Below, piece after piece: positions 36,139-39,824 of a DNA stretch of 64,000 nt. This DNA is from Lysobacter sp. (GTDB lineage Bacteria > Pseudomonadota > Gammaproteobacteria > Xanthomonadales > Xanthomonadaceae). Numbering within the stretch: the stretch's first letter is position 1; each line of letters starts with the position of its first letter. The notes beneath the pieces are model-generated. The model searched no databases. It saw only the letters and a list, made by a program, of their open reading frames with translations, and was not told the DNA's origin. The DNA is taken from the NCBI GenBank assembly GCA_050737755.1, contig JBOHYC010000155.1, forward strand, positions 1,401 to 65,400. Direction: 5' to 3'. Made by a program: the position numbers and the translations under genes.

Positions 36139-36551
36139 CAGCGCGTGACCTCGCCGGCGACGCTGATCGACCCCTGCACCAGCGGGATGACGTATTCGGG
36201 TTCCGAGCCCGCCGGCAGGTACAGCTCCAGGCTGTAGGCCAGCTTCACCCGCTTGAGGTTGTCCGGGTTGAGCGCGACGGTGTCCGCCGCCGCTACTCGG
36301 ATCCGCAGTCGACCATCAGCCGCGGTGTCCCAGGCCAGCTTGGGCGCCTCGCCGGTTGTCAGCAGCTCCATCAGCAGCGTGTCGGTGGTCGACAGCCCGT
36401 AGGCGCCGCGCAGCGTCCGCACCTGCATGCGCGCCTCGTAGCCTGTCAGGTCGATGGGCGTGACCTCATCGTCCTCGGTGTAGGTGAACTCGTCCTCCCA
36501 CGTGGCGCCGCGGGTGACCTGCATGCTGTAGCTGGCGGGGGTTCGGCTCAC
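36138..36551 (-). CDS. BppU-N-like / fibre-attachment domain protein (137 aa)
   Basis: RGATW...PIDLTGYEARMQVR motif; GTGA coupling to the o-spanin stop. Confidence 0.65.
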   Translation of the reverse strand: MSRTPASYSMQVTRGATWEDEFTYTEDDEVTPIDLTGYEARMQVRTLRGAYGLSTTDTLLMELLTTGEAPKLAWDTAADGRLRIRVAAADTVALNPDNLKRVKLAYSLELYLPAGSEPEYVIPLVQGSISVAGEVTR

Positions 36552-36934
36552 AGCTTGATCACTCCAGCATCGTCCAGGCGCCGAAGGCACTGGTCGCAGG
36601 CCTTGCGTCGCAGCTCGCAGGTGTTGGCCACGCCGGTCAACGCAGGGATGACCTCCTCGCCCAGGGCATCCCACGCGGCCGGATCGTTAGGGTCCGCTTC
36701 CCACCGGACGCCGGGGTCACCGTCGGACGTGCACGGTAGGAAGCAGATGGGGTTGCACTGCGCCGGCACCGGCTCGGGCCGCTGCAACGGGCAGCCCGCC
36801 AGCAGCAGCGCGATCGCGATGGTCAGCAGCACGCGACAACAATTGCTACTGGAATTCGGCACTGTCGACACCGTAGGCATGACCGACTTGTCGTGCCGAC
36901 GAATCTCAGCGGCAAATGTTGTCGCGCTGCGCAT
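36548..36934 (-). CDS. Outer-membrane spanin-like lipoprotein (Rz1-like); start may be 36880
   Basis: Hydrophobic signal ending in lipobox LLAGC; Pro-rich N-terminus; several Cys; in the lysis region. Confidence 0.7.
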   Translation of the reverse strand: MRSATTFAAEIRRHDKSVMPTVSTVPNSSSNCCRVLLTIAIALLLAGCPLQRPEPVPAQCNPICFLPCTSDGDPGVRWEADPNDPAAWDALGEEVIPALTGVANTCELRRKACDQCLRRLDDAGVIKL

Positions 36935-36936
36935 GG

Positions 36937-37305
36937 TCAGGAGGCGTGGTCGATGCCGAAACGATCGATCCGCTGTTCCAGCGCGCGCAGGTACTTCCGC
37001 ATGGCGGTGAACTGCACGTGCAGAAGATCCCGTTCCGGACCTGGCAACGCCTTGAACACCGGGGTCGACGTGAAGGTCTGCAGCTTGTCGATCTTGTCGA
37101 CCAACGCCGCGGCCTCGCCGATCACGCGCTGCTGGTGCGGCGGCAGGTGCGCAACGTGGCCGATATCGACGTAGGCCGCTTCGAACGCCTCGCGCGGGCT
37201 CCAGCTCGTGTAGCCATCTGCGTACTTCACGGCGTAGCCCGGCTGGCCATCCTTCTCGGCCGGCCAGGCCGTGACGATCTTGGTGCCGATGTACTCGTGC
37301 GTCAT
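36937..37305 (-). CDS. YIGTK-domain + T4 Y16Q/crAss001_48-like (Sequestin-like) fusion protein (122 aa)
   Basis: YIGTK..GY.V.Y.DGY.SWSP...FE.AY followed by PPHQQRV..E...L..K..KL..F....F..L...E..LL..Q...M..Y...LE.RI..F. Confidence 0.75.
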   Translation of the reverse strand: MTHEYIGTKIVTAWPAEKDGQPGYAVKYADGYTSWSPREAFEAAYVDIGHVAHLPPHQQRVIGEAAALVDKIDKLQTFTSTPVFKALPGPERDLLHVQFTAMRKYLRALEQRIDRFGIDHAS

Positions 37306-37565
37306 TGACCCGTCCTCGCTGCCAACCGCTGGTCGGCTGCCCTGAAGTGCACCAACTCGAGCACGCGATCGCGCGCCTGCTCGAACGCGTACGCCTCGCC
37401 GCGGCTCTGGTTGAACTCCGTGCTGGGCGCGCACACCGACTGCCCGGTCACCGTGAAGCCGTTGTCCATCACGAGCTGGCACACCGTGGTGCGTCCGTCG
37501 GGCAGCACCACGTACTTGACGGTCTTGATGGCCGCCAGCGCGTCGTCGATGTTCGGACCGCTCAC
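37302..37565 (-). CDS. N4 Gp49/Sf6 gp66 family protein (Acb4-like sponge candidate, 87 aa)
   Basis: TTVCQLVMDNGFTVTGQSVC....FN...G...A family pattern. Confidence 0.8.
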   Translation of the reverse strand: MSGPNIDDALAAIKTVKYVVLPDGRTTVCQLVMDNGFTVTGQSVCAPSTEFNQSRGEAYAFEQARDRVLELVHFRAADQRLAARTGQ

Positions 37566-37699
37566 AGGAACACCAGCCCCAGCGCTGCCACCCCGAACGC
37601 GACGAACATCGCGGCCTTGGCCAACAGGGCGACGGTGGCGGCGATGGTGCTGTCGATGGTCGCTTCGTCGAAGCGCTCTTGCTGCTCGGAGTTCAGCAT
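37562..37699 (-). CDS. 45-aa membrane peptide
   Basis: Coupled at both ends; C-terminal hydrophobic helix. Confidence 0.55.
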   Translation of the reverse strand: MLNSEQQERFDEATIDSTIAATVALLAKAAMFVAFGVAALGLVFL

Positions 37700-37983
37700 C
37701 AGATGCGTTCCAGCAGGTCCATCAGGCGCTGGTTCAGCCCGATAGCGGCGAGGTGCCGGGACTGGATGCGGTTGCGCAGCTCGGTGCTGTACTCCGGTGC
37801 GGAGGCATCCCCCTTCAGCGTCCCCGTGCCCTGCTGGCTGACCAGCAGCTTCTCCTCCACCTGGTTCAGCAGGTCGAACGAGTGGTTCTGCGCTCGCGCC
37901 AGGTCCTCGAGCTGCGTGACGATGGGGCTCTCGGGGACCGCTGCGGCGTGGGATTGCATGTTGGCTGCGCTGACACTGTTCAC
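37699..37983 (-). CDS. Hypothetical helical protein (86-94 aa)
   Basis: GTGA overlap with the i-spanin stop; alternative ATG at 37959. Confidence 0.6.
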   Translation of the reverse strand: MNSVSAANMQSHAAAVPESPIVTQLEDLARAQNHSFDLLNQVEEKLLVSQQGTGTLKGDASAPEYSTELRNRIQSRHLAAIGLNQRLMDLLERI

Positions 37984-38351
37984 TTGCGTTGCTCCGGGTT
38001 GCGGCCACGAAGGCCCTGGTTGACTGCGTCCATACGGGCCTGACCCGGCGCGCACTGCTGTGGCAGCGGCGCAGCCTTGGCGGCCTCGCGGTAGATGACT
38101 CGGGTAGTGCGTCCGCGCTCGGCGATCGCCTGCAGGTCAGTGATCAGCTCGGCGTCGTCGCGGTTGCGGCCTTCGGCCAGCTCCGCAGCCTGCTCGATCG
38201 CGCGGACCAGCTCGCGGTTCTCGTCTCGCAGCGGCGCGGTGATCGCGCGCTTCCACTGCCAGACGTTGAGCGCGGCAAGCGCGAGGCAGACCAGCAGCAG
38301 GATCACCACCCACTGCCAGGCAGCCCACCATGCGGAGAGCTTCGCGATCAC
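37980..38351 (-). CDS. Inner-membrane spanin (Rz-like, 123 aa)
   Basis: N-terminal TM helix, periplasmic coiled coil, C-terminal Cys; downstream of the endolysin. Confidence 0.75.
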   Translation of the reverse strand: MIAKLSAWWAAWQWVVILLLVCLALAALNVWQWKRAITAPLRDENRELVRAIEQAAELAEGRNRDDAELITDLQAIAERGRTTRVIYREAAKAAPLPQQCAPGQARMDAVNQGLRGRNPEQRK

Positions 38352-38518
38352 AGCTCGCGGCCGTCGTGGTTGCCGCCCAGGCACTCGGTGATCTGCGAGC
38401 ACTCGCGCCGGCGCCGCGCCATCTCGCTGACGCTCGGTACGGCCCCGTGCTGCTCGGCGCTATCCCGCTCCGGTGGGGTGTCTACCTCGGCCTCGACGGC
38501 CTCGAGCAGCTGGTTCAC
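38348..38518 (-). CDS. Small hypothetical protein (56 aa)
   Basis: GTGA overlaps at both ends. Confidence 0.45.
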   Translation of the reverse strand: MNQLLEAVEAEVDTPPERDSAEQHGAVPSVSEMARRRRECSQITECLGGNHDGREL

Positions 38519-38640
38519 AGCAACGCTCCGACCATCGGCGTCACGAAGATCGACCACTGCTCGAACGTCGCGTAGCCCAGCACCACCAGAACGCCGGCAC
38601 CTGCCGCCAGCCCGACGGCGATCTTCTGCTTGGTGGTCAT
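38515..38640 (-). CDS. 41-aa hydrophobic microprotein (pinholin/antiholin candidate)
   Basis: MTTKQKIAVGLAAGAGVLVVLGYATFEQWSIFVTPMVGALL; ATGA overlap with the endolysin stop; below the ORF-track cutoff. Confidence 0.65.
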   Translation of the reverse strand: MTTKQKIAVGLAAGAGVLVVLGYATFEQWSIFVTPMVGALL

Positions 38641-39209
38641 CGCGGGAGCTCCCCTGTGACGCACAGCTGGTATTCGGCCTGCCGGCGATTGGCCAGGCCG
38701 CGCACGAATTTGTATTCCGGGCGGCCGTTGACCGTCCTACCGGTCTTCACGTAGCTCCAGACGGGCTTTCCCCCGTCCGACACGTAGATGCGCCTGCAGC
38801 CCAGTTGCCACTCCCCGCGGTTCCACGCCTTCATCGCCGCGCTGCCGCAGGTGGCACTGACGCCGTTGTTCCAGGCATGCGACGTGGCTGCATCGAACAC
38901 GCGCTGCGGCGGGTTGCGGTCGAAGCAACGCACCAGGTTCGTCTGGACCTTGGTCACTGCGGCGCGCTCTTCGCGCTCGCACTTCTCGGCCGACCAGGTC
39001 TCACCGACCACGATGGGCGTGGTCGTGATGTGGCGGGTCAGCCCTTTGCACACTGTCGGCAGCCCGTGGGCCAGCTTGTCGGCGTAGACGACGAACTCGC
39101 CCTCGCCTTCCCAGCGGCCCAAGAACGCCATCACCATCGCCGATGCCAGTACCAGGCCAGCGGCGACTCCAGTCGCCTTGCTCTTGCCCTTCGACCTCGC
39201 CGCGGTCAT
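38637..39209 (-). CDS. SAR-type endolysin, GH24 lysozyme (190 aa)
   Basis: N-terminal Gly/Ala-rich SAR helix; WEG..VYADKL..GLPTVC.G catalytic E/D/T region; GL.NRR..E. Confidence 0.9.
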   Translation of the reverse strand: MTAARSKGKSKATGVAAGLVLASAMVMAFLGRWEGEGEFVVYADKLAHGLPTVCKGLTRHITTTPIVVGETWSAEKCEREERAAVTKVQTNLVRCFDRNPPQRVFDAATSHAWNNGVSATCGSAAMKAWNRGEWQLGCRRIYVSDGGKPVWSYVKTGRTVNGRPEYKFVRGLANRRQAEYQLCVTGELPR

Positions 39210-39760
39210 GTCACCACCCGCCTGATCACGCCCAGCCATTGCTTCGCCGGCGGGGCTTCGGGGATCGGCGTCGCGATCGCATCGACGGTGAACTCCTCTC
39301 CGTCGGCATCGATCATCCGGTACCGCATGCTGTAGACCCGGTGCTCCTCACGGCACGAGTCCCATTCCCGTCGTACGGCCAGCCGGTCCTCCGGGTGCAG
39401 GAAGTTCACCCAGTTCCACCCCAGCAGCTCCGCCTTGCCCACGCCCAGCCAGCGGGCGTAGGTCAGGTTCGCGTACGTGTTGGCGCCGGTGGCATCGGCT
39501 TCGAACTCCGCCTGCTCGATGTTCACGTCGCCACGAGCGCGCACTTGCATTGCCAACATGCCGATCGACTTGCGGACATCCGCCACGTCAGAGCGCAGCG
39601 CCGGTACCTCAGACATGCCCTCGAACCCGGCGCGGTAAGGGGCCCACCAGCGGCGTAGCTTCTTCCTGAAGAAGAGCCACACCGCGGCGCCGGCGGATGC
39701 CAGGCTTCCGAGCAAGGTCACTGCCCCGATCGCAATGTCGATGAAGGAGGCAAGTTCCAC
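39206..39760 (-). CDS. Single-TM PAS-domain protein in the holin position (184 aa)
   Basis: TM at aa ~8-31 followed by RKKLRR; PAS motif YAN..Y.RWLG....ELLG.NW.NFLHPEDR....REW......Y...YR. Confidence 0.85.
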   Translation of the reverse strand: MELASFIDIAIGAVTLLGSLASAGAAVWLFFRKKLRRWWAPYRAGFEGMSEVPALRSDVADVRKSIGMLAMQVRARGDVNIEQAEFEADATGANTYANLTYARWLGVGKAELLGWNWVNFLHPEDRLAVRREWDSCREEHRVYSMRYRMIDADGEEFTVDAIATPIPEAPPAKQWLGVIRRVVT

Positions 39761-39777: not shown

Positions 39778-39810
39778 AAACAACGAAGCCCCGGCGCGAG
39801 CCAGGGCTTC
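39778..39810 (-). terminator. Terminator upstream of the lysis cassette (tR'-like)
   Basis: Minus strand GAAGCCCTGG..CCGGGGCTTC followed by GTTGTTT. Confidence 0.65.
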
Positions 39811-39824
39811 AGGTGATTGGTCGG

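What the first reader, a model, noticed from the sequence alone, without database searches (positions are those of the whole stretch)
37302..37565. Divergent Gp49/gp66-family (Acb4-like) sponge coupled to the Sequestin-like gene
The family core TTVCQLVMDNGFTVTGQSVC is clear. I recall this family includes the anti-CBASS sponge Acb4 (needs verification). The C-terminus (RVLELVHFR) departs from the usual KIWxLEGY, so ligand specificity may differ. With its neighbour it forms a translationally coupled, late-expressed two-gene anti-signalling cassette inside the lysis module.
Basis: partly seen in the sequence, partly recalled or inferred. Interest (0 to 1): 0.65.

Follow-up and report, generated by a model that had tools for sequence, protein, structure and literature searches.

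The report
Prophage Acb4-type immune-signal sponge gene
This small prophage gene is a genuine but diverged member of the known Acb4 family, phage proteins that soak up bacterial CBASS alarm nucleotides. It is translationally coupled to a Sequestin-type (anti-Thoeris) sponge gene, so it is a new example of a known counter-defence kit rather than a new kind of system.

Summary
Window 37302-37565(-) is an 87-aa gene with the quoted core and C-terminus.

**Family.** It scores 53 bits on Pfam PF13876 (cut-off 27). Its only PDB sequence hit is SPO1 Acb4. Its AlphaFold2 model (pLDDT 89) superposes on the Acb4 crystal structure 9E4W (TM up to 0.79). The literature confirms PF13876 is the Acb4 family and PF21825 is Sequestin.

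**Neighbour.** The stop codon overlaps (ATGA) the start of a 122-aa protein made of an unnamed N-terminal domain plus a Sequestin domain. That domain keeps all four ligand residues.

**Recurrence.**
- The pair, with both overlaps, recurs in a related metagenomic phage.
- The same domain order occurs as single Acb4-X-Sequestin proteins.
- Thirteen other phages join Acb4 to an X-Tad2 gene by the same ATGA overlap.

**Position.** The genes sit between the two spanin-like genes of a P22-like prophage's lysis cassette. The family's name-giver, Sf6 gene 66, also lies just after the lysis genes.

**Divergence.** The C-terminal helix really is unusual: W to L (W in 137/154 relatives) and G to H (H in 0/154). 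It is conserved in three lineage members, with dN/dS about 0.25.

**Not tested.** Ligand, oligomer and expression timing remain inferred.

**Verdict.** New member of a known kind, of modest interest.

The parts
37302..37565 (-). Acb4-family (PF13876) gene, 87 aa, GTG start. Predicted fold is alpha-beta-beta-beta-alpha.
36937..37305 (-). 122-aa gene. Residues 1-54 form an unnamed beta-rich 'X' (YIGTK...GYxVxYxDGYxSWSP) domain. Residues 55-115 form a Sequestin (PF21825) helical hairpin with R60, E64, Q98 and R112.
   Evidence: Residue roles come from Tal et al. 2025.
37302..37305 (-). ATGA stop/start overlap between the Acb4-like gene and the X-Sequestin gene.
   Evidence: The same overlap is found in L013 and in 13 of 17 Acb4 | X-Tad2 pairs in other phages.
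37313..37317 (-). GAGGA Shine-Dalgarno for the X-Sequestin gene, inside the 3' end of the Acb4-like gene.
   Evidence: conserved in L013.
37562..37565 (-). GTGA overlap: stop of the 45-aa ORF and GTG start of the Acb4-like gene.
   Evidence: The junction and the 'MSG' start are identical in L013.
37562..37699 (-). 45-aa ORF with a C-terminal transmembrane segment. Function unknown. Conserved directly upstream of the Acb4-like gene in L013.
37699..37983 (-). ORF of about 94 aa with unknown function. Its likely start lies just after the i-spanin stop. Conserved in L013.
   Evidence: It has no homology to the 96-aa ORF of L005.
37980..38402 (-). i-spanin-like gene with an N-terminal TM segment and a coiled coil.
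   Evidence: (phrog_89 Rz-like, E = 0.0015, weak), plus synteny in L005 and L013.
36548..36934 (-). o-spanin-like lipoprotein with an LLAGC lipobox. The probable start is M19, at 36880.
   Evidence: It is homologous (E = 1e-13) to the lipoprotein that directly follows the i-spanin in L005.
38637..39239 (-). Endolysin (Phage_lysozyme), the upstream gene of the same strand block.
39206..39760 (-). Membrane-anchored PAS-domain protein, the first gene of the block.
39784..39811 (-). Terminator-like hairpin in the 514-nt non-coding leader upstream of the block. It is a possible late-leader terminator.
   Evidence: No promoter-like or terminator-like site was found between the PAS gene and the o-spanin-like gene.

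Best explanation
The 87-aa protein is a functional member of the Acb4 family of phage 'sponge' proteins.

Inferred mechanism: four copies assemble into a pinwheel tetramer. Pockets between the protomers bind and sequester cyclic-dinucleotide immune signals made by CBASS cyclases. The likely ligands are 3'3'-cGAMP and, as in relatives from Gram-negative hosts, c-di-AMP isomers. With the signal sequestered, the CBASS effector is not activated.

The protein is translated in tandem (ATGA termination-reinitiation plus its own GAGGA site) with an X-Sequestin protein. The Sequestin domain of that protein sequesters the Thoeris signal 3'cADPR. The two genes therefore form a dual anti-CBASS/anti-Thoeris module. 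This module is the split-gene form of the Acb4-X-Sequestin and Acb4-Sequestin fusion proteins of other phages.

Both genes ride in the long lysis-to-packaging transcription unit of a P22-like prophage integrated next to ssrA. They are therefore probably made together with the late proteins.

Shown: gene, family, fold, junctions, synteny, purifying selection.
Inferred: tetramer, ligand, anti-defence effect, timing.
For: **Family and fold**
- PF13876 at 53.2 bits against a cut-off of 27.
- The sole PDB sequence hit is 9e4w Acb4.
- AF2 model pLDDT 89.2 with an a-b-b-b-a topology.
- Foldseek ranks 1-13 are all 9e4w chains: TM 0.68-0.79, rmsd 0.9-2.3 A over 63-74 columns. The next hit has E = 0.03.

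**Published function of the family**
- PF13876 is the Acb4 family, and 8 of 8 purified homologues bound 3'3'-cGAMP.
- N4 gp49 binds c-di-AMP at 111 nM. It is 56% identical to the query over the 46-residue core.
- The Ab09 Acb4-Sequestin fusion binds gcADPR, cGAMP and 2'3'-cAA.

**Ligand positions**
- K36 to R25, F48 to F37, F62 to F51 and N63 to N52 are kept.
- T38, C45 and Y59 equal the proteobacterial consensus.

**Selection**
- dN/dS is 0.25-0.26 in three pairs.

**Partner**
- PF21825 at 66 bits.
- R60, E64, Q98 and R112 are invariant in 87 relatives, with SequestinB spacing.

**Module**
- The same pair and overlaps occur in L013.
- Acb4-X-Sequestin occurs as a single protein.
- 22 of 150 nearest representatives are fused to Sequestin, 3 to Tad2, 1 to Tad3 and 1 to RyR.
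- 13 of 17 Acb4 | X-Tad2 pairs share the ATGA overlap.
Against: - No binding, oligomer or phenotype data exist for this protein or its lineage.
- The Pfam score is about half that of typical members (88-121 bits), and the match stops at profile position 77 of 82.
- The segment that in SPO1 Acb4 forms the tetramer 'joint' and the third-protomer wall of the pocket (K81, L89) is the most diverged part. Here it carries L69, E70, H73 and A76.
- The adenine-pocket position I66 is R55 here. R occurs in only 2 of 154 relatives.
- The host MAG has no CD-NTase (SMODS) and no ThsB_TIR hit. SMODS is rare in its relatives, at 2 of 41.
- A late-operon position is not the early expression seen for SPO1 Acb4.
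Confidence: 0.72

Rival explanations
1. The protein is still a sponge of the Acb4 fold, but this lineage (window, L013, L005 copy 2) has shifted ligand specificity or oligomeric packing. The cause would be its remodelled C-terminal helix (W to L, G to H, L to A) and, in the window and L013, an Arg in the adenine pocket. It would then sequester a signal other than the canonical 3'3'-cGAMP/c-di-AMP set.
For: - The lineage-specific residues are conserved in all three members under purifying selection.
- They map onto the SPO1 segment that builds the joint interface and the K81/L89 phosphate contacts.
- L005 carries a canonical PF13876 gene (108 bits) and the divergent type (51.8 bits) in the same lysis module, which suggests non-redundant roles.
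- No lineage member is in the published list of 1,331 homologues.
Against: - SPO1 Acb4, the crystallised cGAMP binder, itself has I80 and A84 rather than W and G, so these residues are not required for cGAMP binding.
- R55 is not shared by L005, which has I.
- All tested homologues across the family bound cGAMP.
Confidence: 0.17
2. The protein has no sponge role. Instead it uses its dsRBD-like fold for another late function, for example RNA binding or a lysis-associated role, as its position between the spanin genes might suggest.
For: - The Acb4 fold resembles dsRNA-binding domains and hibernation factors. The next Foldseek hit after Acb4 is Rv1738.
- The gene lies between the i-spanin-like and o-spanin-like genes and is GTGA-coupled to a small membrane ORF.
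Against: - Every experimentally tested family member is a nucleotide sponge.
- The nearest relatives are fused to other verified sponge domains, not to lysis or RNA-handling domains.
- The post-lysis slot is a known accessory-gene position, as for Sf6 gene 66.
- In L005 the spanin genes are adjacent and the gene lies outside them.
Confidence: 0.07
3. The gene is a decaying remnant left after an Acb4-X-Sequestin fusion gene was broken by a stop codon.
For: - Pfam score is low.
- Compared with L013, the window copy lacks an N-terminal stretch of about 70 aa and a 14-aa C-terminal stretch.
Against: - dN/dS is about 0.25.
- The frame is intact in three phages, and the start and stop junctions and the SD are conserved.
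- The AF2 model is confident.
- The same split architecture with an ATGA overlap is the common state in Acb4 | X-Tad2 pairs.
Confidence: 0.04

Closest known systems
Acb4 (anti-CBASS 4) of Bacillus phage SPO1, PDB 9E4W; Pfam PF13876 Phage_gp49_66 (Chang et al. 2024, doi 10.1101/2024.12.30.630793)
   Same: Same Pfam family and the same alpha-beta-beta-beta-alpha fold (TM up to 0.79). It is a small phage-encoded protein. The basic residue at K36, the stacking aromatic at F48 and the F62/N63 pair are conserved.
   Different: Only about 30% identical over 50 residues. E49 to T, V56 to C, Y57 to A, I66 to R, T70 to Y, K81 to E. The host is Gram-negative. Tetramer and ligand were not tested.
Escherichia phage N4 gp49 (Acb4 homologue, binds 3'3'-c-di-AMP at 111 nM, triggers PanDA; doi 10.64898/2026.08.10.743972)
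   Same: Closest experimentally characterised stand-alone relative, at 56% identity over the 46-residue core. It shares the proteobacterial T38/C45/Y59-type pocket residues.
   Different: N4 gp49 has the canonical KVWELEGY helix, a beta-hairpin insertion and a Cys-rich tail. It lies in an early or middle hotspot of a lytic N4-like phage, not in a prophage lysis block.
Acb4-Sequestin fusion proteins (Pseudomonas phages YH6/YH30 and Ab09 gp59; Stenotrophomonas phages Piffle/Pokken)
   Same: Same two sponge domains in the same order. Piffle is the best phage match (51% identity). Ab09 gp59 is shown to bind gcADPR, cGAMP and 2'3'-cAA.
   Different: Here the domains are on two polypeptides joined only by an ATGA overlap. 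An extra X domain precedes Sequestin. The Acb4 C-terminal helix is remodelled.
Shigella phage Sf6 gene 66 (name-giving PF13876 member)
   Same: Same genomic slot: downstream of the holin/endolysin/Rz genes and upstream of the terminase in the late operon of a P22-like phage.
   Different: Sf6 gp66 is a 126-aa canonical member (121 bits) with an insertion. It lies after both spanin genes and has no adjacent Sequestin.

Membership tests
Acb4 / PF13876 | Sequence match to the family profile above Pfam's gathering score | tested here: met
   53.2 bits against 27, E = 4e-14, profile positions 8-77 of 82. 150 of 150 nearest representatives are also PF13876.
Acb4 / PF13876 | alpha-beta-beta-beta-alpha (dsRBD-like) protomer fold as in 9E4W | tested here: met
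   AF2 pLDDT 89.2 with H6-12, E13-20, E26-33, E38-44, H53-85. The top 13 Foldseek hits are all 9e4w chains, TM 0.68-0.79.
Acb4 / PF13876 | Homotetrameric pinwheel with inter-protomer pockets | not testable with these tools
   Only monomer prediction was available. The helix segment that forms the 'joint' is the most diverged part.
Acb4 / PF13876 | Ligand-contact residues of SPO1 Acb4 (K36, F48, E49, V56, Y57, F62, N63, I66, T70, K81) | tested here: inconclusive
   Four positions are kept or conservative (R25, F37, F51, N52). Three equal the proteobacterial consensus but differ from SPO1 (T38, C45, Y59). A46 is a minor variant, R55 is rare (2/154), and E70 sits at a variable position.
Acb4 / PF13876 | Binds and sequesters cyclic-dinucleotide immune signals and relieves CBASS | not testable with these tools
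   Known only for relatives.
Acb4 / PF13876 | Small phage or prophage protein, often fused or adjacent to other sponge domains | tested here: met
   87 aa in a prophage integrated next to tmRNA. ATGA-coupled to a Sequestin gene. For fusion statistics.
Sequestin / PF21825 (neighbour gene) | Profile match above the gathering score | tested here: met
   66 bits against 24.8, residues 55-115.
Sequestin / PF21825 (neighbour gene) | Conserved 3'cADPR-contact residues (SequestinA R8/E12/Q47/R61; SequestinB R7/E11/Q45/R59) | tested here: met
   R60, E64, Q98 and R112 have the SequestinB spacing (4, 38, 14) and the QQRV motif. All four are invariant in 87 relatives. The mapping is by motif and spacing, not by an alignment to SequestinA/B.
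Sequestin / PF21825 (neighbour gene) | Helical hairpin forming an antiparallel dimer that binds 3'cADPR | tested here: inconclusive
   The AF2 model (pLDDT 95.2) shows helices 56-78 and 89-114. There is no solved Sequestin in the PDB copy to compare with. Dimer and binding were not testable.

The most novel reading that the evidence does not exclude
The window/L013/L005 lineage would be a functionally distinct Acb4 subtype. Its remodelled joint/pocket helix (L69, H73, A76, with R55 in two members) would retune the sponge to a different nucleotide signal or a different oligomer. That would explain why one phage (L005) keeps it alongside a canonical Acb4. The Acb4 | X-partner gene pair with a fixed ATGA junction would be a conserved co-translated unit, in which the unnamed X domain has a role of its own.
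Probability: 0.18. Interest if true: 0.5.

Novelty: new member of a known kind. Interest (0 to 1): 0.3.

Why it matters
- It extends the Acb4 family with a lineage absent from the published catalogue of 1,331 homologues. That lineage has natural substitutions exactly in the helix that builds the tetramer joint and the third wall of the ligand pocket. This makes it a ready-made test of which residues set specificity.
- It shows that the published Acb4-Sequestin fusions also exist as two co-translated genes. The Acb4 | X-(Tad2 or Sequestin) junction is repeatedly an ATGA overlap across unrelated phages, which points to selection for co-production.
- It adds one more case of sponge genes lodged in the lysis-to-terminase slot of P22-like prophages, here even between the two spanin genes.
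- None of this changes the current picture of phage counter-defence.

Tried and rejected
- **Word-index homologue search**. It found only 3 proteins and missed the close L013 copy. The exhaustive search and the neighbour-led look-up were needed.
- **The search for related loci with the 61-sequence alignment.** A 9-sequence alignment worked.
- **118-aa ORF versus the 96-aa ORF of L005.** No homology, so that gene is not a fixed partner of the lineage.
- **P0072, a 1419-aa hit with '12 stretches'.** It is a low-complexity repeat, and my family HMM does not match it.
- **Second PF13876, X or Sequestin copy in the window.** None found.
- **Host CBASS/Thoeris.** No SMODS or ThsB_TIR in the host MAG. 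This is uninformative about function.
- **PDB sequence and fold search for X-Sequestin.** Nothing significant.
- **Programmed frameshift to make a fusion.** Considered and rejected. The junction GGGTCAATGA has no slippery heptamer, and the downstream gene has its own SD.

Full report
**1. Observation**

The minus-strand ORF 37302-37565 encodes 87 residues. They contain the quoted core (residues 26-45) and C-terminus (residues 67-75).

The GTG start overlaps the TGA of a 45-aa membrane ORF (GTGA). The TGA stop overlaps the ATG of the next gene (ATGA). A GAGGA Shine-Dalgarno sits 8 nt upstream of that ATG, inside the Acb4-like gene.

The ORF is a real gene:
- Pfam PF13876 scores 53.2 bits against a cut-off of 27.
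- An exhaustive HMMER search finds 1107 cluster representatives at E <= 1e-3.
- dN/dS against two lineage relatives is 0.25-0.26.

**2. Family**

- Chang et al. (2024) identify PF13876 as the Acb4 family. SPO1 Acb4 is a tetrameric sponge for 3'3'-cGAMP, and 8 of 8 purified homologues bound cGAMP.
- The only PDB sequence hit of the query is 9e4w Acb4 (E = 0.1).
- An AlphaFold2 model built on 61 homologues (pLDDT 89.2) has the alpha-beta-beta-beta-alpha topology.
- The 13 best Foldseek matches of that model are all chains of 9e4w (TM 0.68-0.79). The next hit is three orders of magnitude weaker.

The protein is nevertheless diverged.
- The best phage matches are 51% identical or less.
- The next cluster representative is 57% identical.
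- The Pfam score is about half that of typical members (88-121 bits).
- No protein with its signature peptides is in the published table of 1,331 homologues.

**3. Where it differs**

I aligned the 154 nearest representatives together with SPO1 Acb4. The query follows the consensus through the beta-sheet core.

Mapping of the ten SPO1 ligand contacts:

| SPO1 residue | Query residue | Note |
|---|---|---|
| K36 | R25 | conservative |
| F48 | F37 | kept |
| E49 | T38 | family consensus is T |
| V56 | C45 | family consensus is C |
| Y57 | A46 | family is V; A in 15 |
| F62 | F51 | kept |
| N63 | N52 | kept |
| I66 | R55 | family is L or I; R in only 2 |
| T70 | Y59 | family consensus is Y |
| K81 | E70 | variable column |

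The C-terminal helix carries the lineage hallmark. L69 replaces W (W in 137/154). H73 replaces G (G in 128; H in 0). A76 replaces L (L in 132).

In SPO1 this segment forms the inter-dimer 'joint' and supplies K81 and L89 to the pocket, so the change is in a functionally loaded place. However, SPO1 Acb4 itself has I80 and A84 at the W and G columns. These residues are therefore not prerequisites for cGAMP binding.

Two metagenomic relatives share the hallmark (RVLELVHFRAAD and RVLELLHFRAAD): L013 at 86% identity and L005 at 73%. R55 is shared only with L013.

**4. Neighbour and module**

The 122-aa downstream protein has PF21825 at residues 55-115 (66 bits). Tal et al. (2025) named PF21825 Sequestin, a 3'cADPR sponge. 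They found it through its frequent fusion to Acb4 and Tad2.

Its residues R60, E64, Q98 and R112 have the spacing of SequestinB R7, E11, Q45 and R59 and follow the same QQRV motif. They are among only 11 invariant columns in 87 relatives.

Residues 1-54 form a beta-rich domain with no Pfam, PDB or significant fold match. I call it X.

X recurs in several arrangements:
- X-Acb4, Acb4-X and Acb4-X-Sequestin single proteins.
- X-Tad2 genes placed directly after Acb4 genes.

Among 96 related loci from IMG/VR and GTDB genomes:

| Arrangement | Loci |
|---|---|
| Acb4 alone | 65 |
| Adjacent X-domain gene (X-Tad2 in all those inspected) | 19 |
| Acb4-Sequestin fusion | 7 |
| Acb4-X-Sequestin fusion | 2 |
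| Adjacent Sequestin gene | 2 |
| X-Acb4 fusion | 1 |

In 13 of the 17 downstream X-gene cases the junction is the same 4-nt ATGA overlap. The other 4 have 2-5 nt spacers.

L013 reproduces the window's gene order: i-spanin, 95-aa ORF, 44-aa TM ORF, Acb4-like, X-Sequestin, lipoprotein. It has identical GTGA and ATGA junctions. The window's pair is thus the split-gene form of a recurrent, and partly published, multi-sponge module.

**5. Genomic setting**

The contig carries tmRNA at one end and a host hybrid histidine kinase at the other, so the element is an integrated prophage. It has a P22-like portal (526 bits) and a small terminase.

Gene order on the minus strand is:
1. Replication genes.
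2. SRAP.
3. A 514-nt leader with a terminator-like hairpin.
4. PAS membrane protein.
5. Endolysin.
6. i-spanin-like gene.
7. 94-aa ORF.
8. 45-aa TM ORF.
9. Acb4-like gene.
10. X-Sequestin gene.
11. o-spanin-like lipoprotein.
12. Small genes.
13. Terminase, portal and capsid genes.

No promoter-like or terminator-like site lies within the block.

The lipoprotein is homologous (E = 1e-13) to the one that directly follows the i-spanin in L005. In the window and in L013 the sponge genes therefore sit between the two presumed spanin genes.

Sf6 gene 66, the family's name-giver, occupies the equivalent post-lysis, pre-terminase slot. The location is therefore typical for the family.

**6. Mechanism and alternatives**

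The most likely reading (about 0.7) is a working Acb4-type tetrameric sponge for cyclic-dinucleotide CBASS signals, co-translated with a Sequestin sponge for the Thoeris signal.

Published data on the nearest characterised relatives support this:
- N4 gp49 binds c-di-AMP at 111 nM.
- The Ab09 Acb4-Sequestin fusion binds gcADPR, cGAMP and 2'3'-cAA and triggers Panoptes.

A shifted specificity for this lineage is possible (about 0.17). It is hinted at by L005 carrying both a canonical and a divergent copy. A non-sponge role or a decaying remnant is unlikely.

The host MAG has no CD-NTase or ThsB-TIR hit, and relatives have few. This neither supports nor refutes the reading.

**7. Verdict**

This is a new, diverged member of a known family in a known type of arrangement. 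Interest is modest. The most useful leads are the natural helix variant, the conserved ATGA-coupled Acb4 | X-partner unit, and the unnamed X domain.

Noticed in passing
window 37144-37305 (-), residues 1-54 of the 122-aa protein: An unnamed beta-rich 'X' domain (YIGTK...GYxVxYxDGYxSWSP...FE..Y) with no Pfam or PDB match. It recurs N-terminal to Sequestin, Tad2 and Acb4 domains, and between Acb4 and Sequestin in triple fusions. G7, K9, W14, G23, P37 and F41 are invariant in 87 relatives.
   Followed up: partly
window 37980-38402 and 36548-36934 (-): The presumed i-spanin and o-spanin genes are separated by four genes (94-aa ORF, 45-aa TM ORF, Acb4-like, X-Sequestin), here and in L013. In the related L005 the two are adjacent. 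A spanin pair split by accessory genes is unusual.
   Followed up: partly
window 37562-37699 and 37699-37983 (-): A 45-aa tail-anchored membrane ORF and a ~94-aa ORF, both without family matches, are conserved upstream of the Acb4-like gene in L013. The 45-aa ORF is GTGA-coupled to the Acb4-like gene in both.
   Followed up: no
L013:2154-2378: In L013 the Acb4-like frame is open for 75 extra codons, from the same GTGA/'MSG' start as in the window. This gives a 171-aa protein with an extra N-terminal segment of unknown fold. The gene caller started it at an internal GTG (96 aa).
   Followed up: no
L005:938-1288 and L005:2284-2586: One related phage contig carries two PF13876 genes in its lysis module. 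One is a canonical copy (108 bits, with a hairpin insertion) right after the endolysin. The other is the divergent-lineage copy (51.8 bits) after the spanins.
   Followed up: partly
L121:22-375 (contig start, upstream of the window) and L122:700-3759: A tmRNA gene (tag ANDDNYALAA) lies at one contig end and a host hybrid histidine kinase at the other. The element is a prophage, probably integrated at ssrA.
   Followed up: partly
L017/L018:4001-4351: A stand-alone X-Sequestin gene (67% identical) sits immediately before the tape-measure gene of an unrelated siphovirus-type tail module. This is another late-operon location for a sponge gene.
   Followed up: no
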